From the NCBI GenBank assembly GCA_000004985.1, contig GG738870.1: DNA of 64,000 bases. The stretch is one strand, 5' to 3'. Of this stretch, positions 33,126 to 43,550 are shown piece by piece. The translations under genes and the position numbers were made by a program. Under the pieces are notes generated by a model. That model worked only from the letters and a program-made list of their open reading frames with translations. It searched no databases and was not told where the DNA came from. This DNA is from Naegleria gruberi. Lineage: Eukaryota. Positions within the stretch are counted from its first letter, which is position 1; every line of letters starts with the position of its first letter.

Positions 33126-34019
33126 ATGAAAATTTTGAATAGATATGAGGCTTGGTGGCCTGTTAGAATAGTTTTGGATGAAAACTATTCGACGCCACAG
33201 TTGTTTAAGAAGCAGATAGGAAATTCTGATAAGGATGAAATACGAGTGGTGAAGGAATGTATTGTAAGAATGCAAAATGAGCAAATTCATGAGAAGGATG
33301 AGAATGGATGGTTATTAGATATCAAGCGAAACATGACGAAATCAAGAATTCACATATATGAACAAATATTGAATGGATTTACCAATATTAATCAAAAGCA
33401 AAGGACAACCGAACTAATTAAGAAATTGAATTTGTGGGAAAATAGAGATTTTGCCTCATTATTTGTTGTTAAAAGGGATTTTACTGATCTGCCTTTTAAA
33501 TGGCAGCAAGAAAAGGAAATTGCACTGATAGCTATTCGAAGGGAGCCTAGTACATTCCAATTATTATCAAGAGAATTAAGAATGGACAAGGAAGTTATCA
33601 TGACAGCTGTCAAATTAAATGGAGATTTGCTGAGATATGTATGTGCAACGATTGAAAGAGAAATGGTTTTTACAGCCTTCTCTGCACTAATACCAATCAA
33701 ATATTGTGGTTTATATTGGATTATTGGTAAAATGGCTGATGATAGGGATATTGTAATGGCAGCTGTCAAATCTGATGGTCAAGCTCTTAAGAATGCTTAT
33801 GAATATCAAAATGACAGAGAAATTGTAACAACAGCTGTGCAACATAATGGCTGTGCTATTCAATATGCTTCATTTGAATTGCAATTAGATACTGAGATAG
33901 TGCTGACAGCTGTCAAGCAAAATCCTGATGCTTATTTCCTTGCAACATTTGAATGTCAGACAGATCCTGAAATAATGGAAGCTGCTGGTATAACAGAAGA
34001 TATGGGAATTCTATTTTAA
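33126..34019 (+). CDS. DUF4116 repeat protein
   Basis: Tandem ~36-aa repeats of the form EIVxTAVKxNGxxLxYASxELQxD: IVMTAVKLNGDLLRYV, IVMAAVKSDGQALKNAYEY, IVTTAVQHNGCAIQYASFELQLDTEIVLTAVKQNPDAY. ATG at 33126. Confidence 0.75.
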   Translation: MKILNRYEAWWPVRIVLDENYSTPQLFKKQIGNSDKDEIRVVKECIVRMQNEQIHEKDENGWLLDIKRNMTKSRIHIYEQILNGFTNINQKQRTTELIKKLNLWENRDFASLFVVKRDFTDLPFKWQQEKEIALIAIRREPSTFQLLSRELRMDKEVIMTAVKLNGDLLRYVCATIEREMVFTAFSALIPIKYCGLYWIIGKMADDRDIVMAAVKSDGQALKNAYEYQNDREIVTTAVQHNGCAIQYASFELQLDTEIVLTAVKQNPDAYFLATFECQTDPEIMEAAGITEDMGILF

Positions 34020-34286
34020 CAAATTTCAAAATAAAATCTTTGAAATTCATAGAAAATTAAGATTTTATTCAAAATAATAGTAATCAAATTTAATGGTTGC
34101 GTGAAACAAATGGATTCACCTTGCAATTGAAAATATTCATGTTTGGAATTGCGAGAAGCATGTCGTCCTAAGTTCTAATAAATATTCGATTTTAAATTCG
34201 AATCCGAAAAAGGAATTTCTTGTCGTATAACTAGTTTGCATGATATGAGTTTGTTAGCAATTCACCAATTTAAAAAACCGAACCAC

Positions 34287-35710
34287 ATGAAACTCTATAT
34301 CTTCTTATTATTGACATTCCTGTCAGCTGTTCTTGTCAATAATCTTCCAATTAAAAGAAGAAACAAAGACTTAGAAAAATCATTCAATATTTTTCAATTT
34401 GGCAATCCAATCCAACCCTCTACCAAACATCCAATCCACAATATCAAAATTAACAAAGTTTCAAACCTTCAAATGTCACCAATAATTCTTGTTGGTGGAT
34501 TGGGTGGCTCCTCACTCATGTCCCAACGAAATCACAGCACCAACGAGCCACACTGGTGGTGTCAAAGAACCACTGATCCATTTCAGATTTGGTTATCCCT
34601 TCAGGAAATGATCCCCTATCTCTCAGAAGATTGTTTTGTGAACGACATGTCAGTGGAATTAAAAAATGGAATTCTTGGACAGAAAGATAGAAATGTTAGG
34701 ATTTTTGGAAAGGATATTGGTGGTATGGAAGGTTTAAATTCGATTATTGCAGAGTTTCCAAGTAAATGGTATTATATGAAGCCACTGGCTGACTATTTAG
34801 TTTCGAATGGAAGTTACGAAATTGGAAAGAGTTTGAGAGGGTTTACTTATGACTGGAGAGTGGGTGTCAGAGAGAGGGCAAATGATAGTTTGTCACTCGG
34901 AGGGGATTACTTCAAACTACAAAAATTGGTGGAAGAAACTTTTAAATTGAATGGAAGAAAAGTTTCCTTATTAGGGCATTCTATGGGAGGACCTTTCTTA
35001 CAATATTTTCTAGCTAATTTTGTGAGTCAAGATTGGAAAGATAGATATATTTACAAGTATATTCCTGTGGCTGGTCCATTTGATGGAACATCATTTTCTT
35101 TGGTAAGTAATTCAATTAACTTTTATTCGAAACATTTCAGATTCTTTATGTGACTGGAACTAATTGGCAATTTCCAGGATTCAAACCAGAAAATGCAAAG
35201 AAATTACTTAGACAATATCCTTCCATTCTATTCATGACTCCAACCCAATTTCCATACAAGTATCCATTCTTTTCTTATAAAGGAAATGTGAGCTATCATG
35301 TTGACCTTTCGGATATTGAGAAATTCTTGACAGATGCACAAGTTTCCAATGGAGTTGCACTCTACCATCACGAATACTCTCAATATAAGCACAATAGATT
35401 AAATGCACCTAACGTGACCACTCATTGCATGTATGGTTATGGAACTCCAACAGCCACACGTGTCAGATATACTGGAAACAAGGAATTGAAAGATTTAAAT
35501 TACATGGACGTGTTACATAACACCACTGTTGTGAATAGTGAAGATGGAGATGGAACTGTTCCAATATATTCTTTGGAATTATGTGATCAATTTGCCAAAA
35601 GTCAAAAAAAACCAGTTCATGTTCATCGATTTGCAAATGAAACTCACTCAGATATTATTAATTCAGAACAGTTCCAAAAAATATTACTGGAAATTCTCTC
35701 ATATGATTAA
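34287..35710 (+). CDS. LCAT-like phospholipase/acyltransferase (PLA2G15/LCAT family); two exons 34287..35102 and 35141..35710
   Basis: Signal peptide MKLYIFLLLTFLSAV. LCAT motifs PIILVGGLGGS, GHSMGG, HCMYGYGTPT, GDGTV and ETHSDI. The two track ORFs are joined by TTG|gtaagtaattcaattaacttttattcgaaacatttcag|ATT, a 38-nt intron. Confidence 0.85.
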
Positions 35711-36401
35711 AAAATCATTCCATTTTAATAATTATTATTCCATTTATAGAAAAATGTGTGAACTTTAAATTTAAACTTTCTTGAAAATGCAAAAGAGGAA
35801 ATTTTGAGTACATACTACACCTAATTTTTCTCAGCCTGTTGTTGTTGCCAATATTTTCACTAAAATCATTATCACTGTCAGATTCGCATGATAATTCGGA
35901 AAACTTTCAATCTAATATTGTTCAACAACATGATCGATTCCATCAGGTACTTCCGAACATTTTCCTATTGGTTATCATGATGATATAGGTATTATTGTTT
36001 GCATTCCAATGATTTTGTAAAACTGTCTTTAAATTTGATATTTGGTTCTCTTGTCGATCGACAATATCTTCTGTATCTTTGTTTTCTTGTTTTTCTTGAG
36101 GGGATTTCCTGTTAGTGTTCCCTTCTCACTGGCTGTTGCTGTTGTTGTTTCATAGCATCCTTAATTTGTTGTTGGACGTCAACAACCAATTCATTACTTG
36201 TTGACATTTTTCAAAGTAATTATCAAATTAATAAATATTCAATATTGAAGTATATAAAATTTCATTCAAAACAAATATTTTGAGGAATTGAATTTAAGAA
36301 TGGATCGGGATCCCTCAATCATGTAATATTTAAATATCAAATTTAATATTTAAATTATTTTGATATTACAATTTCGGAAGTTTACAAATCAAAAAAAAAA
36401 A

Positions 36402-39400
36402 ATGAAAATTCAAAATTTACCTTGTGATTTGTGTGCCGAACACTTGCTATGTTTTTTCAATGAATACCACTTGCTGCAGATGAGATTTATTTCAAAGGCT
36501 TTTGATGAGTGGATCTGGTACTATTTCCTGAATAACAAGACTCGCTACTTGATTCACATCGCATTGGGTAATCATAGGATCGGAGGAGTTGTCGATAATT
36601 TACTGATCAAGATGAAACGATTGAAGGTTATTGATTTGTTTACATTCAATTCTTTGGATTTCTTGTCATTAACAGGTAATTGTTTATTAATTTATTATTA
36701 TTTATTGATGGTCGATTAATATTTGCTGCTTTTTTAGATGTGGGTTTGTGTGAGCTTGGACGATTGTCAGTGGAAGAGTTGAGGTTGAGAGCTGCAACTT
36801 TGTGTTTCTGGAAGTTTCATTGTTGAGTGGATAATGAATGCAAGTCCATTGTTGGAATCTTTGACAGTATTGACACTTACTAATCTTAAAACTGAATATT
36901 TTCACTTGTTGAAAGAGTTTAAGAATTTAAAAACTCTCGAGTTGATACGTCTTGTATCTGAACGAAATCTCCATGAAGAAGAAATGGATCAAACCATGAT
37001 TGGGTTTCCTCAATCTTTGACAGAGTTTCGTTCTAACTATCCACTAACACGCAAGAATATTGAGGACATCACACAACAATGTCCAAATTTAACAGTTTTG
37101 GTTATCAACCCTATTTATTTTGATGATTCTATCATGTCATTAGTACTTTCCAATGTTTCACAAAAGATTGAACAATTTTCTCTCTTTTCTCGAGACACAC
37201 TATCAAATATAACTGGTTCATACTTTTCAGTATTTTCATCCAATTCATTCTCCCATTTGAAAAAGATCAAGGTGGTATGGAAATCAACTTCTGATGAAAC
37301 AATATTGAATCTTCAAAAGAATTTGAGTCTCCTTTCAAGAACATTAGAAAGATTGAAAGTTGTTTTCACTAATGAATATGATTCCTCATATGAATTAGAT
37401 ACATTGTTAGGTTGTCTCTGTAATCTCTCCAACTTGTCTAAATTAACATTAGACTTTCCAAGAAATTTTCAATTTACCATTGTAAAAGAAGATATTTTGG
37501 AACAATTGAAAAGTTGTTTACAACTCAGAATTCTGAAAATTTATGGAGGTACTAACGAAATAGTTTGTTTTAATGTTGTTAAGGCTTTGGCAGGACAACA
37601 TTTGGAAAAACTGTTGTATCATACTGATACTTATTTTGATATTGAGGAGGAACCATTCTTTTTCCATGAATGTGAAGATTTAAAAATTTTGGATCTGCAA
37701 GGTGAACAGCTCCAAGATAAAATTATTCATCAAAATATCCAAGCAATAGTAAATTGCAAACTGGAAGAAGTTTTAGGTGAGGCCATTGAAGCTTCAGTTA
37801 TTCCTCATTTACCTAGGAGTTCTCTAAAGGTTCTTAATGTAAGGGTAACCAACGAGAATGTTGAATATCTAAAATATCTTGGAGAATTCAAGAATTTGAC
37901 AACATTGAAAGTATGCTTTGGTGAGCAGGTTACTAACTTACAAGAGTGCACTTTTCCAAGTAACATTACTAATCTTTCTTTTGTTGGAGAGATTACTGGA
38001 GCAGAAATTGGATTCAAAGACTGGCTGCTCTCTACAAAAATTTTAAAAGAATTAGTGTTTTCAAGATGTAAGATTCAAGATGAATTTATTAAGGATATTA
38101 TTCCCCTATCTGATGAATTGGATATCCTAAAAATAGAGTACAACAACGGCCTTACACAAGAATCAACACAATATTTCAGACAATTCACCAATTGTAGAGT
38201 TTTACTGTTGGAATGCTTTGACTCTAGAGTATTGAGCGCAGATTATTCTCTTTTTGAACAAGAAGTTAACAGGGTTACCGTTATAATGAAAGAAGAATCA
38301 CCAAGCACAAAATGGATTTGCCCAACAATTGATTATAATGATATTGATCAAGGTCTTTCCTATGTAAGAGAAAGAATGCATGTAAGAGAAATGAAAGATG
38401 CATGTTTAGCTATTGAACAACTATCCAGACATGTTTTTTTAGACATTTCGAAAGCCGAAATTTGTAAACTTTTTCTGAGTGCTTTTCAATATGAAACTAA
38501 TGTGGACTTTTATGGAATAATTGATCTTTTGGATGTACTATGGAAAGAAGGAAAAATTGTATTTGAGGAAAATAATATTCACGATCTGGAAAAGTTAATA
38601 CCTCTAATATTATCTCAAACTGAATTTTGTGTTGTTGCTAATATTTTAATGGATTTAGGGAGGTTCACCAGTTTTTTCAATTGTTTTGAGTATATCATAC
38701 AATGTTTGAATGATATTGAGTATAATATTCATAATTGCACACAAAAGATGATCAGTAGAGTTTTACATCAGTTTATTGATGGGAAACAAGATATTTGTAA
38801 TTTTTCTGGACATGTTGTTATTAATACTGTTATTGCAGTAGTGGATTATTTCCCACAAAATGATAGCATTTTGGACTTTATCAACCTAGTCATGTCCAAT
38901 GAATTTTTCAAATCTTCGAAGAAAACCTTAGAACTTATTGCAGAAAAGAAAGCAAAAATAGATGCAGAGTTCACAGAAACAGAAATTGAGCCAATATTGA
39001 AACCTATAGGAGAGGACCTTTTCCAATTTGTGCAGGAGAATATTCCACCACAGAAAAAAGATTATACCATTCATATTGCAGATGTTAAGGTACCAAAAAC
39101 TGGCCCTTTTAATACTAGCTATTATTCTGAACCTTTCATACGGTTTGGACACGAGTGGGTTGTGGAGCTTCTGCCAGGTATGTTACGTTTTATTAATTTT
39201 CTAATTATCTAATCGGAAACAGATGATGAAGATGAATGTTTGGGCAATTCTACAGTATTTTTAACACTAAATTCCACAATTCCAGTAGAGAATAAGCAAC
39301 AGGTATTTGATAGAATAAGACTCGACTTTTTTATTTGTAATTTTGATCTAGAACCTCAATCCTATCTTGTTCACAGTAGAAAATTCATTATGCCTGAAGC

Positions 39401-40133
39401 ATCTTATGGAGTATTTCTTGATAAAACTCATATTGCCGCTTACTCAACAGATGAGGATGATTTTCTCAAGTTTAAATTTGTGGTTGGGATGAAGAAAGTT
39501 GAGGAAGAACCATTCAAACCTTTCAATAATATTGAAATGTTCCATGTTGGAAGTAAGGAATTATCCTCAACTAATTATCCTCCTATTGTTCATAGATGGG
39601 CAGCAGAGTTTCCATTATCCATCCATACTTTGACATTTCGTGTTAGTCCTGATAATATTGATAGGTGTTGTTATTCAGATAAGTTCACAGCATTTGGAGC
39701 CAAGTTTTCAGCTTGTTTCAATCACTTGGGTGTTGCCAAAAGTAAGTAGTTTTATGAAATTAGTTACAAACACGTGTATTTCACTACGCGATAATTAACA
39801 GAGGTTAAGGATTTTAGAGAAAACTCATCAATATATCTATATCTATCTTCCTTTGATTACAATGACAAAGAAAATGAATTGGAATCAATCAAAGTTAAGG
39901 CAATATTTGCAAATTCTGATTTCCACACAGAATCATTCTATGTTTTCAAAAATACATTTCAATCACTTACAAGTTCAGGAAGCACAATACAAAGAGCCTA
40001 CTATCAACCCAAACTAATCCATGTAGATGGAAAGCCTTACTATGAATATGTTGTAAATTGTTGTCTTGCCTTAATGAGTAGAAAAACTTGTCATCCATTT
40101 GGATACAATAAAGAGGAAGAAGAGGATGTTTGA
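36402..40133 (+). CDS. F-box / leucine-rich-repeat protein, multi-exon (F-box exon, large LRR exon, two C-terminal exons)
   Basis: Exon 1 from ATG 36402 (a-run upstream) encodes an F-box-like segment and ends at CAG|gtaattg (36675). The large ORF 36834..39212 is LRR-like. It ends at CCAG|gtatgt (donor 39178) and joins in phase to the 39240 ORF after aaacag| (45-nt intron), then A|gtaagt at 39742 joins to 39817..40133 (75-nt intron). The exon1-exon2 join near 36676-36790 is unresolved. Confidence 0.55.
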
Positions 40134-40141
40134 ATGAATAG

Positions 40142-40550
40142 ATTAAATAAAGAATTCCATTAGAAATGTTAGGATTTTTGGAAAGGATATTGGTGTGGTA
40201 TGGAAGGTTTAAATTCGATTATTGCAGAGTTTCCTATTAAATGGTGACTATTTAGTTTCGAATGGAAGTTACGAAATTAGAAAGAGTTTGAGAGGGGAAG
40301 AAACTTTTAAATCACATATTTGCCAAAAGTCAAAGAAAACCAGTTCATGTTCATCGATGTGCAAATGAAACTCATTCAGATATTATTAATTCAGAACAGT
40401 TCCAAAAAATGTTACTGGAAATTCTCTCATATGATTAAAAAAACTTTCCAATTTAATAATTATTATTCCATTTATAGAAAAATGTGTGAAATATAAATTT
40501 AAACTTTCTTGAAAATACAAAAGAGGAAATTTTGAGTAGTATTGAAAGGT
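40142..40550 (+). pseudogene. Mosaic, internally deleted copy of the upstream LCAT-like gene (pieces of 34686-34941 fused to its 3' end/3'UTR 35590-35815)
   Basis: Near-identical strings such as gaaatgttaggatttttggaaaggatattggtg, ggaaggtttaaattcgattattgcagagtttcc, and ccagttcatgttcatcgat..gcaaatgaaactca...tccatttatagaaaaatgtgtgaa, with several internal deletions. Begins 9 nt after the stop of the F-box/LRR gene. Confidence 0.6.
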
Positions 40551-41227
40551 GTAGTATGCACTTGTTCGAAACTTTCAACAAGTTCAAACTTGCACTCAAC
40601 ATTCTCAAACATTTTCATCCATTTTCCAGTGTCGTATTGAGTAATAGGAAGACCGCTGCATTTAGTTGGTCCACCATTTGATGAAAATGTGGAAATGAGA
40701 AAGTAACCGCCCTTCTTTAACAATTTGCACATAATTTTTAAGTACTGAACTTGATCTTCCATAGAATTCAAAAAGTGAAAAGTGGCTCGGTCATGCCAAA
40801 TGTCAATTATTTGCTCTTCTTTCAAAACCGAGTCCAATTTCAAAATATTACTTTCAATGAATGAAACTCTTTCCAATCCATTCAAAGCTTTCATTAATTC
40901 TCGACTTCTTTCAAGAGCTGCCTTTGAAATGTCAATCAAGAAATATTCGCCAAATGTCACTTTTTCTCTCTTGATTATTTCATAGCTCAGATGGGAATTT
41001 CCGCAACCAACATCGATAAATGTCTTGTTGGCATCAGAAACATCGAGAGCGGAACCAAACTTTTCTATTAATTCCAATGAAGTTTCCGGAATTTCCTGAA
41101 ACCAACTTGTTTGTGAATCTGCTTTGGTTTCGTAAACATTTTCCCAGTGCGATTTCAAATCAGTGCTTGCTTCTTGAAGAGCTGAGCTTGCCACAAGTGT
41201 TGGTGTTGTTGAGGATTCTTGTTGCAT
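40499..41227 (-). CDS. Class I SAM-dependent methyltransferase
   Basis: Motif I IDVGCGNSHL, acidic motif II and LKKGGYFLIS. The track start is a GTG start; ATG taken at ~41227 (aaaaaaaaATG context). The last ~10 codons are encoded by sequence shared with the LCAT 3'UTR copy. Confidence 0.8.
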   Translation of the reverse strand: MQQESSTTPTLVASSALQEASTDLKSHWENVYETKADSQTSWFQEIPETSLELIEKFGSALDVSDANKTFIDVGCGNSHLSYEIIKREKVTFGEYFLIDISKAALERSRELMKALNGLERVSFIESNILKLDSVLKEEQIIDIWHDRATFHFLNSMEDQVQYLKIMCKLLKKGGYFLISTFSSNGGPTKCSGLPITQYDTGKWMKMFENVECKFELVESFEQVHTTPFNTTQNFLFCIFKKV

Positions 41228-42698: not shown

Positions 42699-43319
42699 CT
42701 ACTCAGTTTGTTCTAATTCTTCATTAATATACGAAATGGTATTGGAAAGCTTTGGTTGAATGATCTTTTCCAAGGCATTAACACGACGATTGGTTGACTT
42801 GATGGCTTGATCCAATGAAATGAAACTTGTTTGCAAATTTGCTAAACGAATCATTTTGTGAAGAGTTTCAGAAAATGTCAATTTGCAATTTTGAATTTCT
42901 TCACCTCCTCTTGAGAGGAATGAAAGTTGCTTTCTTGAAGGTGATTTCTTAAATTGCAATTTCTCTTCTTGATTATCAACTTGAGTAAATACAGCAAATT
43001 TGACACCTGACACATTTTCCATATGACTTGTTACTCTTACAGCTGCAGATTTAACACTTTCAGTAACTGCAAATGATAAATCTCCAGCACTATATCTTGC
43101 CTCAGTCAATGAAAAGAATGATTTACGAAACAAGCTTGTCATTCCTTCCTTTTCTTCCTTGATTTCGTTCACAATCGAATAAAACTTATTTCTCAAAGCA
43201 TCTGATTTCTTTCTAAGCATCGATTGACCACGTTTAGCACTATTCAAACGATTCTCCATTAATTGTAAGGTCATTCTATTCGGAACAACAGCCAATCTAT
43301 TATTAATAGTTGCAGACAT
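42699..43319 (-). CDS. vatD: V-type proton ATPase subunit D
   Basis: PNRMTLQLMENRLNSAKRGQSMLRKKSDAL, FSLTEARYSAGD and NRRVNALEKIIQPK align along the whole of V-ATPase subunit D, though divergent. ATG at 43319 after an a-run; the track start at 43343 is an upstream in-frame ATG. Confidence 0.85.
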   Translation of the reverse strand: MSATINNRLAVVPNRMTLQLMENRLNSAKRGQSMLRKKSDALRNKFYSIVNEIKEEKEGMTSLFRKSFFSLTEARYSAGDLSFAVTESVKSAAVRVTSHMENVSGVKFAVFTQVDNQEEKLQFKKSPSRKQLSFLSRGGEEIQNCKLTFSETLHKMIRLANLQTSFISLDQAIKSTNRRVNALEKIIQPKLSNTISYINEELEQTE

Positions 43320-43550
43320 TTTTTTATGTTTTGAAAATTTCATCTCCTGAAAATGTTTGTGAATTTAAAGTTTTTGCGATTTTGCTTTATTTTTAGTTTT
43401 TGAAATTTTCATGTTGTTTCAATTTGGTTGCTGTAACACGGAAAGTCGTTGGAAAAGGATAGTATGGAGTTTAGTTTTGGATATTTGCATTAGAATGGAA
43501 TTTCAATGAACATTTTTTGAACTTTATTGTAAATTTTCTTGTTAAAAAAA

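What the first reader, a model, noticed from the sequence alone, without database searches (positions are those of the whole stretch)
40142..40572. Mosaic fragment of the LCAT-like gene copied 5 kb downstream now supplies the C-terminus of the methyltransferase gene; a 12-nt inverted junction
Positions 40142-40550 are near-identical to four discontinuous pieces of the LCAT-like gene: about 34686-34760, 34790-34856, 34926-34941 and 35590-35815, the last including its 3'UTR. On the opposite strand, the final ~10 codons of the SAM-methyltransferase (QNFLFCIFKKV-stop) are read from the copied LCAT 3'UTR sequence. Immediately next to that, the methyltransferase codons CAT ACT ACA CCT (HTTP) are the exact inverted copy of the 12-mer catactacacct that follows gagta in the original LCAT 3'UTR. 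This suggests a fold-back or template-switch duplication breakpoint and exaptation of UTR-derived sequence into coding sequence.
Basis: seen in the sequence. Interest (0 to 1): 0.55.

Follow-up and report, generated by a model that had tools for sequence, protein, structure and literature searches.

The report
Decaying LCAT gene fragment beside methyltransferase
A broken leftover copy of one Naegleria gruberi gene sits next to a methyltransferase gene as the scar of an old 1.1-kb duplication; the methyltransferase tail is ancient and original, so nothing was borrowed from the neighbour.

Summary
The repeat is real. Window 40161-40538 matches four ordered pieces of the LCAT-like gene region (34688-34770, 34790-34841, 34931-34947, 35590-35810) at 96.5% identity. 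The inverted 12-mer is also real, and extends to 15 of 16 bases.

The proposed direction of transfer is wrong. The methyltransferase C-terminus (HTTPFNTTQNFLFCIFKKV) is conserved in Willaertia, N. fowleri and bacterial homologues, none of which has an LCAT gene beside it. So the methyltransferase tail is ancestral. The last 40 nt of the "LCAT 3' UTR" (35771-35810) is an antisense copy of that tail, and 35811-35822 is an inverted copy of its HTTP codons.

The two genes once lay tail-to-tail, 60 nt apart. A 1123-nt segment spanning that boundary was duplicated. The two copies now flank 4.35 kb carrying one F-box/LRR-family gene. Both inner junctions carry an exact 12-nt fold-back copy of sequence 8-11 nt outside the duplicated segment, which is a template-switch signature.

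The copy next to the methyltransferase is an unprocessed pseudogene fragment that is decaying by deletions. A related strain (metagenome contig L006) still has sequence across the 642-nt deletion.

This is an ordinary rearrangement scar that can be read in unusual detail. There is no exaptation and no assembly artefact.

The parts
34287..35710 (+). Intact LCAT-like gene (exon 1 34287-35102, 38-nt intron 35103-35140, exon 2 35141-35710; 461 aa). Equals N. gruberi XP_002676697, which is annotated from an internal Met as 341 aa.
   Evidence: Pfam LCAT hits on both exons. Splice and translation. 100% match to P0121 and a full-length 63% paralogue P0122. A related-strain contig, L005, is 99% identical over 34014-35441.
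34665..34676 (+). Template 'a' (AATGGAATTCTT), 11 nt upstream of the duplicated segment. Its reverse complement sits at 40150-40161.
   Evidence: 12/12.
34688..35810 (+). Duplicated segment D, copy A (complete, 1123 nt). It holds LCAT codons about 134-461, the stop codon, the 60-nt former intergenic spacer (35711-35770) and an antisense copy of the methyltransferase tail.
35771..35810 (-). Antisense copy of the methyltransferase stop codon plus its last 12 codons and 1 nt, now non-coding inside the LCAT 3' flank. It has one difference from the real tail (35789 G versus 40517 A; TGC versus TGT, both Cys).
   Evidence: Polarity comes from the conservation of the methyltransferase tail.
35807..35822 (+). 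Fold-back junction of copy A. AGTACATACTACACCT is the inverted copy of methyltransferase codons (V)HTTP at 40547-40562, with 15/16 matching. AGT(A) overlaps the end of the direct repeat as microhomology.
   Evidence: (I17). The A at 35810 matches the GTA Val codon seen in Willaertia.
35823..40149 (+). Stretch between the two copies (4.33 kb). It holds one F-box-like/LRR-family gene (about 36402-40133, + strand, with introns near 36720-36833, 39178-39213 and 39745-39800) and about 580 nt upstream of it. It has no terminal repeats.
   Evidence: Paralogues P0138 and P0139 (84-96% aa) lie on another N. gruberi scaffold.
40150..40161 (+). Fold-back junction of copy B. AAGAATTCCATT is the reverse complement of 34665-34676.
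   Evidence: 12/12; chance about 1.5e-5 per 60-nt target.
40161..40538 (+). Duplicated segment D, copy B: a decayed, unprocessed pseudogene fragment of the LCAT-like gene. Relative to copy A it has a 2-nt insertion (40196-40197) and deletions of 20, 89 and 642 nt. All three reading frames contain stops.
40311..40318 (+). Junction of the 642-nt deletion. There is a 5-nt filler CACAT (40313-40317), and ATCACATA is the reverse complement of 35580-35587, 2 nt from the retained flank. The deletion is absent from the related strain.
   Evidence: 8-mer chance about 2e-3; the 5 free nt alone about 0.09.
40499..41227 (-). Class I SAM-dependent methyltransferase gene (242 aa; N. gruberi XP_002676792 / D2VGE6). 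It is intact and its C-terminus is ancestral.
40547..40562 (-). Template 'b': methyltransferase codons GTG CAT ACT ACA CCT (VHTTP) plus 1 nt. This is the original of the inverted 12- to 16-mer, 8 nt outside the duplicated segment.
   Evidence: H224, T226 and P227 are invariant across 13 homologues.

Best explanation
In an ancestor of this N. gruberi lineage, the LCAT-like gene (+) and the methyltransferase gene (-) lay tail-to-tail, with about 60 nt between their stop codons. One rearrangement duplicated a 1123-nt segment D spanning that boundary: the last 328 LCAT codons, the spacer, and the stop plus last 12 codons of the methyltransferase. The two copies are now separated by 4.35 kb carrying a single F-box/LRR-family gene.

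Each gene stayed joined to one copy. LCAT keeps the complete copy A (34688-35810). The methyltransferase keeps copy B (40161-40538).

At each inner end of D, the synthesising strand jumped 23-24 nt ahead onto the strand of its own sense and copied 12 nt back towards D. This gave 35811-35822 (inverted methyltransferase codons HTTP) and 40150-40161 (inverted LCAT codons about 127-130). It is a fold-back template switch of the kind described for replication-based (FoSTeS/MMBIR) or polymerase-theta-type repair.

Copy B was redundant as LCAT coding sequence. It has since decayed as an unprocessed pseudogene through a 2-nt insertion and deletions of 20, 89 and 642 nt.

Shown by the data: the repeat, its extent, the inverted junction copies, the ancestral status of the methyltransferase tail, the pre-split age of the duplication, and the later date of the 642-nt deletion.

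Inferred: that the duplication and the intervening 4.35 kb arose in one event (my estimate is about 50%, against about 35% for a larger duplication later trimmed by deletions), and which enzymes were involved.
For: The repeat is real and unique in the window.

The methyltransferase tail HTTPFNTTQNFLFCIFKKV is conserved down to bacteria. It is present, with partly identical DNA, in Willaertia and N. fowleri, where no LCAT lies within 10 kb. So 40499-40562 is native, and 35771-35822 is the derived copy.

LCAT coding runs continuously across 34665-34700 in copy A. It does so in the related strain as well. So the left flank is native at A.

There are two exact 12-nt reverse-complement copies with mirror-image geometry at the two inner junctions (chance about 1.5e-5 each).

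Copy B has stops in all three frames.

An independent metagenome assembly of a related strain (L006, 97.5% identical) shows the same methyltransferase-plus-LCAT-fragment adjacency. It shares 5 of the A/B differences but still carries sequence (A 35562-35589) that the window has lost. So the duplication is older than the strain split and copy B decays stepwise.

The intervening gene belongs to a young multi-copy family, which fits a recently inserted paralogue.

Literature: flank-templated inserts of under 25 bp, primed within about 10 bp of breakpoints, with reverse-complement ones arising by snap-back synthesis (PMC5068794). Leading-strand switches to the lagging template at both forks of a bubble (PMC4689423).
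Against: No genome with the pre-rearrangement arrangement (LCAT and methyltransferase adjacent) was found. N. fowleri and Willaertia show no synteny at either gene.

DNA of the paralogous F-box/LRR loci could not be retrieved. It is therefore untested whether homology to a donor starts and stops exactly at 35823 and 40149.

The strain-specific 642-nt deletion also carries a short inverted filler. Fold-back junctions may therefore be a general feature of repair in this organism. That weakens the argument that the two 12-mers must come from a single event.

Part of the left 12-mer is the palindrome GAATTC.
Confidence: 0.75

Rival explanations
1. Larger duplication followed by trimming. Either the whole LCAT gene plus its 3' flank was copied from beside the methyltransferase to a site 4.35 kb upstream, or the methyltransferase plus the LCAT 3' part was copied downstream. 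Independent later deletions then removed the redundant outer parts. One of those deletions created the 40150-40161 fold-back junction. On this view the 4.35 kb between the copies is ancestral sequence, not an insert.
For: Copy B demonstrably loses sequence through later deletions, and one of them also has an inverted filler. So a fold-back at a later deletion junction is plausible. No donor boundaries for the 4.35 kb could be tested.
Against: It needs at least one extra large deletion that ends exactly where a fold-back of the same geometry is found (a 23-24 nt jump and a 12-nt copy) as at the other junction. It also treats as coincidence that the intervening gene belongs to a recently expanded family.
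Confidence: 0.2
2. A mosaic fragment of the LCAT gene and its 3' UTR was copied next to a methyltransferase gene. The methyltransferase then recruited the UTR-derived sequence as its last 10 or so codons.
For: The stop codon and last 12 codons of the methyltransferase do lie inside the repeated block.
Against: Those residues are invariant or conserved in Willaertia, N. fowleri and bacterial homologues that have no LCAT neighbour. Homologue lengths end at the same position. The Willaertia DNA for this tail is largely the same.
Confidence: 0.02
3. Assembly artefact: a chimeric or collapsed assembly placed LCAT-derived reads beside the methyltransferase.
For: None beyond the general possibility. 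Raw reads were not available.
Against: The copies differ by 3.5% plus four indels, unlike artefactual duplicates. An independent metagenome assembly of a related strain shows the same junction between the methyltransferase tail and the LCAT-like sequence.
Confidence: 0.02
4. Processed pseudogene: copy B, or the gene at A, is a retrocopy of LCAT mRNA.
For: Copy B contains 3' UTR-like sequence and lacks the region that holds the intron.
Against: Gene A retains its intron. Copy B has no poly(A) tract and runs directly into the methyltransferase coding sequence, which is the ancestral neighbour. The intron region is missing because of a deletion that is absent from a related strain.
Confidence: 0.01

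Closest known systems
Unprocessed (duplicated) pseudogene fragments left by small segmental duplications
   Same: It is a partial copy of a parent gene that includes non-coding flank. It has no poly(A) tract, its frames are disrupted, and it is being eroded by deletions while the parent stays intact.
   Different: The duplicated unit straddles two convergent genes. Each copy therefore remains useful on one side: as the 3' end of LCAT in copy A, and as the tail plus downstream region of the methyltransferase in copy B.
Template-switch or fold-back junctions: FoSTeS/MMBIR, and snap-back synthesis in polymerase-theta-mediated end joining (SD-MMEJ)
   Same: Short (12-nt) reverse-complement copies of sequence lying within about 25 nt of the breakpoint, with 1-4 nt of microhomology at the switch point (compare PMC5068794, PMC5728401, PMC4912351).
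   Different: The templates lie just outside the duplicated segment, on the un-rearranged flank, and the two junctions mirror each other. The enzymes are unknown in Naegleria, and nothing here shows polymerase theta involvement.
ODIRA (origin-dependent inverted-repeat amplification)
   Same: At both ends of a short replicated segment, the nascent strand appears to switch to the same-sense template a few tens of nt ahead. This is the initiating step proposed for ODIRA (PMC4689423).
   Different: The outcome here is a direct duplication separated by 4.35 kb of other DNA, not an inverted triplication. No pre-existing inverted repeats at the switch sites and no origin are shown.
Tandem duplications from staggered breaks or over-synthesis during double-strand-break repair, with filler DNA captured between the copies
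   Same: A direct duplication flanks foreign or filler DNA, and each copy is contiguous with its native flank.
   Different: The filler is gene-sized (4.35 kb, one complete family member). Its origin could not be traced with these tools.

Membership tests
Exapted UTR-to-coding sequence / chimeric gene C-terminus | The C-terminal residues encoded by the acquired sequence are absent from orthologues that lack the acquisition. | tested here: not met
   The tail HTTPFNTTQNFLFCIFKKV is conserved in 12 homologues, including bacterial ones. Eight positions are invariant. There is no LCAT flank in Willaertia or N. fowleri.
Unprocessed (duplicated) pseudogene fragment | Nucleotide-level homology to a parent gene, extending into its non-coding flank. 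| tested here: met
   96.5% identity over 373 nt, including 100 nt downstream of the LCAT stop.
Unprocessed (duplicated) pseudogene fragment | The reading frame is disrupted and the copy evolves without coding constraint. | tested here: met
   There are four indels, none a multiple of three (+2, -20, -89, net -637), and stops in all three frames. The related strain has further indels of its own.
Processed pseudogene (retrocopy) | Intron loss, a 3' poly(A) tract and short target-site duplications. | tested here: not met
   There is no poly(A) tract at 40538. The copy abuts the methyltransferase coding sequence. The intron position lies within a secondary deletion.
Fold-back / template-switch rearrangement junction (FoSTeS, MMBIR, snap-back TMEJ) | The junction insert is a reverse-complement copy of sequence close to the breakpoint, beyond chance expectation. 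| tested here: met
   12/12 at both inner junctions, with templates 8 and 11 nt from the breakpoint. The empirical chance is about 1.5e-5 each. 15/16 at the right junction (I17).
Fold-back / template-switch rearrangement junction (FoSTeS, MMBIR, snap-back TMEJ) | Microhomology at the switch point. | tested here: met
   AGT(A) is shared at 35807-35810 / 40559-40562. 1 nt (T/A) is shared at 40161.
Fold-back / template-switch rearrangement junction (FoSTeS, MMBIR, snap-back TMEJ) | Dependence on a specific polymerase or pathway (Pol theta, Pol32/Pif1-dependent BIR). | not testable with these tools
   This needs genetics in Naegleria.
ODIRA | The product is an interstitial inverted triplication that contains a replication origin. 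| tested here: not met
   Only two copies are present, both in direct orientation. Origin status is unknown.
Transposable-element insertion with target-site duplication | Terminal inverted or direct repeats and a short TSD of fixed length, plus transposase or RT coding. | tested here: not met
   The ends of the 4.35-kb stretch show no terminal repeats above shuffled controls. The flanking duplication is 1123 nt. The only gene is an F-box/LRR-family protein with no Pfam transposase hit.
Class I SAM-dependent methyltransferase (Methyltransf_31-type) - identity of the neighbouring gene | Pfam domain above the gathering threshold, and full-length alignment with homologues. | tested here: met
   PF13847 scores 95 bits against a cut-off of 27. 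The alignment with 12 homologues runs to the last residues.

The most novel reading that the evidence does not exclude
Two more novel readings are not excluded.

(a) The mirror-image geometry of the two junctions (a 23-24 nt jump ahead and a 12-nt copy back, at both ends of a 1.1-kb segment) could record a single aberrant replication or repair bubble. Both of its leading ends would have switched templates and then captured a complete paralogous gene. That would be a replication-based route for inserting new gene copies between convergent genes while duplicating their shared 3' region, so that both keep their terminators.

(b) The methyltransferase 3' UTR now runs antisense through a 95%-identical copy of the last 120 coding nt and the UTR of LCAT. 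The two unlinked transcripts could therefore form dsRNA and couple their expression through RNAi.
Probability: 0.1. Interest if true: 0.5.

Novelty: new member of a known kind. Interest (0 to 1): 0.25.

Why it matters
It removes an attractive but wrong story of UTR-to-coding exaptation. In its place it gives a clean, base-resolved example of how a compact protist genome separates two convergent genes: the shared 3' region is duplicated, so each gene keeps its own end, and the redundant half then erodes. The two mirror-image fold-back junctions, together with a datable later deletion seen by strain comparison, could serve as reference cases for template-switch repair signatures in Heterolobosea, where such mechanisms are essentially undescribed. 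The event itself belongs to well-known classes (segmental duplication, pseudogene decay, templated junction insertions).

Tried and rejected
- Exaptation of UTR into the methyltransferase C-terminus: rejected by the orthologue alignment and the Willaertia and N. fowleri loci.
- Synteny test for an ancestral LCAT-methyltransferase adjacency in N. fowleri and Willaertia, starting from either gene: uninformative, because no gene order is shared.
- Retrieval of N. gruberi DNA for the methyltransferase and for the F-box/LRR paralogues P0138 and P0139: not on record. Donor boundaries of the 4.35-kb stretch remain untested.
- JGI metagenome scan with a 21-mer common to both junctions: three hits, all chance. 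L011 is a bacterial locus with only a 29-nt match.
- Chimeric protein query to find further contigs of the related strain spanning the other junctions: only N. gruberi paralogues came back, and no new ENA contigs.
- Transposon-like ends of the intervening stretch: none.
- Simple in-place inversion at the right junction: rejected. After the inverted 16-mer, copy A continues AATTTTTC, not the TTCAATAC expected from inverting the adjacent 8 nt.
- Retrocopy: rejected. Gene A keeps its intron and copy B has no poly(A) tract.
- More diverged homology between the flanks of the two loci by tblastx: none beyond the repeat.

Full report
**Organism and genes.** The window is Naegleria gruberi. The minus-strand ORF 40499-41227 is 100% identical to the N. 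gruberi predicted protein XP_002676792 / D2VGE6. It is a class I SAM-dependent methyltransferase (PF13847, 95 bits). The plus-strand LCAT-like gene has exon 1 at 34287-35102, a 38-nt intron at 35103-35140 and exon 2 at 35141-35710. It matches XP_002676697 / D2VGE4, which is annotated from an internal Met.

**The observation.** The repeat finder and BLASTN confirm that 40161-40538 is collinear with four pieces of the LCAT region.
- 40161-40195 = 34688-34722.
- 40198-40245 = 34723-34770, following a 2-nt insertion.
- 40245-40296 = 34790-34841.
- 40296-40312 = 34931-34947.
- 40318-40538 = 35590-35810.

There are 13 mismatches in 373 nt, which is 96.5% identity. Relative to the gene, the copy lacks 20, 89 and 642 nt. 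These are the only repeated segments in the 64-kb window. All three frames of the copy contain stops. The methyltransferase stop codon and last 12 codons lie inside the repeat. The inverted 12-mer is exact: 40547-40558 is the reverse complement of 35811-35822, and the match extends to 15/16. The observation therefore stands, with small corrections to the coordinates.

**Polarity.** I aligned the protein with its closest relatives: Willaertia magna (69-71% identity), N. fowleri (about 50%) and ten metagenomic or bacterial homologues. The tail HTTPFNTTQNFLFCIFKKV proved to be one of the best-conserved parts of the family. H224, T226, P227, F228, Q232, N233, F234 and F239 are invariant, and all the proteins end within a few residues of the same position. 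In Willaertia the gene is followed by a convergent ribosomal protein L28 gene, and in N. fowleri by an unrelated gene. tblastn finds no LCAT-like sequence within 10 kb in either species. The Willaertia DNA for this tail reads GTA CAC ACT ACA CCT ... CAAAATTTTCTCTTTTGT. The tail is therefore native to the methyltransferase. It follows that 35771-35810, downstream of the LCAT gene, is an antisense copy of that tail, and that 35811-35822 is an inverted copy of its HTTP codons.

**The ancestral arrangement.** The repeated unit D (34688-35810 in its complete copy) contains genuine LCAT coding sequence at one end and genuine antisense methyltransferase coding sequence at the other. The two genes must therefore have been tail-to-tail neighbours, with about 60 nt (35711-35770) between their stop codons, when D was duplicated. 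At its left end copy A is continuous with the native flank; LCAT coding runs straight through 34665-34700, and does so in a related strain too. At its right end copy B is continuous with the native flank, the methyltransferase. The present structure is:

L - a - x - D - b' - [4.33 kb] - a' - D* - y - b - R

- a = 34665-34676 and x = 11 nt.
- y = 8 nt and b = 40547-40562.
- b' = 35811-35822 and a' = 40150-40161. These are exact 12-nt reverse complements of b and a.

An exact reverse-complement 12-mer in a specified 60-nt stretch of this window occurs with an empirical frequency of about 1.5e-5.

**Geometry of the junctions.** The two junctions mirror each other. A strand leaving D rightwards at 40538 resumes 24 nt ahead on the same-sense strand, pairing AGT(A) with (T/C)ACT. 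It then copies 12 nt back towards D. A strand leaving D leftwards at 34688 resumes 23 nt ahead and also copies 12 nt back. The one mismatch in the 16-mer (A at 35810 against G-complement at 40559) corresponds to a synonymous GTA/GTG Val codon. Willaertia has GTA, so the inverted copy may preserve the older state.

**What lies between the copies.** 35823-40149 carries about 580 nt of upstream sequence and one intact multi-exon gene at about 36402-40133. This gene has an F-box-like N-terminus and LRR-like repeats, with no Pfam hit. It has close paralogues on another N. gruberi scaffold, P0138 and P0139, at 84-96% amino-acid identity. It therefore belongs to a recently expanding family. The ends of the stretch carry no terminal inverted or direct repeats.

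**Independent assembly and timing.** An ENA metagenome (ERZ929261, PRJEB11402) contains a closely related strain.
- Contig L005 matches 34014-35441 at 99%.
- Contig L006 matches the methyltransferase locus, 43155-40318, at 97.5%. It continues from the methyltransferase stop into the LCAT-derived block. The adjacency is therefore not an assembly artefact of the reference.
- The two B copies (window and L006) share five differences from copy A. The duplication therefore predates the split of the strains.
- L006 continues with CATTATATTCTTTGGAATTATGTGATCA, which corresponds to A 35562-35589. At that point the window has the 642-nt deletion and a 5-nt filler. That deletion is therefore later and lineage-specific.
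- L006 also has its own 4-nt deletion.

Copy B is thus a pseudogene being eroded step by step, not a mosaic made in a single step. At the 642-nt deletion junction, ATCACATA (40311-40318) is the reverse complement of TATGTGAT (35580-35587), which lay 2 nt from the retained flank. This is suggestive of another fold-back fill-in, but it is weak on its own: the 8-mer chance is about 2e-3, and only 5 nt are free, with a chance of about 0.09.

**Mechanism.** The shown facts are the duplication across a convergent gene boundary, reverse-complement junction copies with microhomology, and later decay. The rest is inferred.

My preferred model (about 50%) is a single replication- or repair-synthesis event. 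Two 3' ends copy an intact template past each other over 1.1 kb. Each aborts with a fold-back template switch. They are then joined with a captured 4.35-kb paralogous gene between them. This needs no extra deletions at the outer borders of D. It explains the mirror symmetry, and it fits the youth of the intervening gene family.

The main alternative (about 35% of my belief, counting both directions) is a larger duplication of a whole gene plus the neighbour's tail, followed by independent deletions. One of those deletions would have produced the 40150-40161 junction. The later 642-nt deletion also shows an inverted filler, which makes this alternative credible.

Literature context:
- Flank-templated inserts are usually under 25 bp and are primed within about 10 bp of breakpoints. 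Reverse-complement inserts arise from snap-back synthesis (PMC5068794; see also PMC4912351 and PMC5728401).
- Switching of leading strands to the lagging template at both forks of a bubble is the first step of the ODIRA model (PMC4689423). ODIRA predicts an inverted triplication, which is not what is seen here.
- FoSTeS and MMBIR are cited from my own knowledge.

**Consequence for the genes (inferred).** The duplication let each convergent gene keep its own downstream region after they were separated. LCAT keeps the old spacer plus 40 nt of antisense methyltransferase tail as its 3' flank. The methyltransferase keeps the old spacer plus antisense LCAT 3' sequence. Whether these stretches still act as 3' UTRs or terminators is untested. 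So is the possibility that the antisense overlap (221 nt at 95.5%) links the two transcripts through dsRNA.

**Verdict.** The fold-back breakpoint idea is supported and extended to a second junction. The exaptation claim is refuted and the polarity is reversed. The feature is an ordinary kind of event (segmental duplication scar plus unprocessed pseudogene fragment) that can be reconstructed unusually well. Interest is low to moderate.

Noticed in passing
window 34287-35710: The NCBI model of the LCAT-like gene (P0121, 341 aa) starts at an internal Met (MSVELKNG...). The ORF extends upstream to MKLYIFLLLTFLSAVLV..., which looks like a signal peptide, giving 461 aa. This longer form is supported by the full-length paralogue P0122 (464 aa) and by the related-strain protein P0123. 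The annotated protein appears to be N-terminally truncated.
   Followed up: partly
window 36402-40133 (+): An F-box-like/LRR gene with no Pfam hit belongs to a young N. gruberi family. P0138 (831 aa) and P0139 (948 aa) on a 207-kb scaffold are 84-96% identical in parts. Both look like mosaic or mis-joined gene models: P0139 carries an unrelated 340-aa C-terminal half, and both skip internal blocks.
   Followed up: partly
L005 and L006 (ENA ERZ929261, PRJEB11402, run ERR1078381): An environmental metagenome contains a strain 97.5-99% identical to the N. gruberi reference at both loci. It could be mined for population-level structural variation in this region.
   Followed up: partly
L006 2615-2859 (= window 40318-40538 region): The related strain's pseudogene copy has its own 4-nt deletion (CATCGATG becomes CATT) and several private substitutions. 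This shows independent decay in the two lineages.
   Followed up: yes
window 33126-34019 (+): A gene with five DUF4116 repeats (PF13475, E = 2.7e-52) lies immediately upstream of the LCAT-like gene. Its internal 38-nt repeat family was reported by the repeat finder (D2).
   Followed up: no
window 35823-36210 (-): The stretch just right of the fold-back junction holds only short minus-strand ORFs (for example 36112-36207, MSTSNELVVDVQQQIKDAMKQQQQQ...). It is unclear whether this is a small spliced gene or the upstream region of the F-box/LRR gene.
   Followed up: no
window 42699-43343 (-): A V-type ATPase subunit D gene (PF01813, E = 2e-48) lies two genes beyond the methyltransferase. It is also covered by the related-strain contig L006 at its start.
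   Followed up: no
methyltransferase family: Outside Heterolobosea, the closest relatives of this methyltransferase are about 203-208-aa bacterial proteins (Chryseobacterium and Chitinophagaceae types) at 40-48% identity. This hints at a bacterial origin of the gene in the Naegleria/Willaertia lineage.
   Followed up: no
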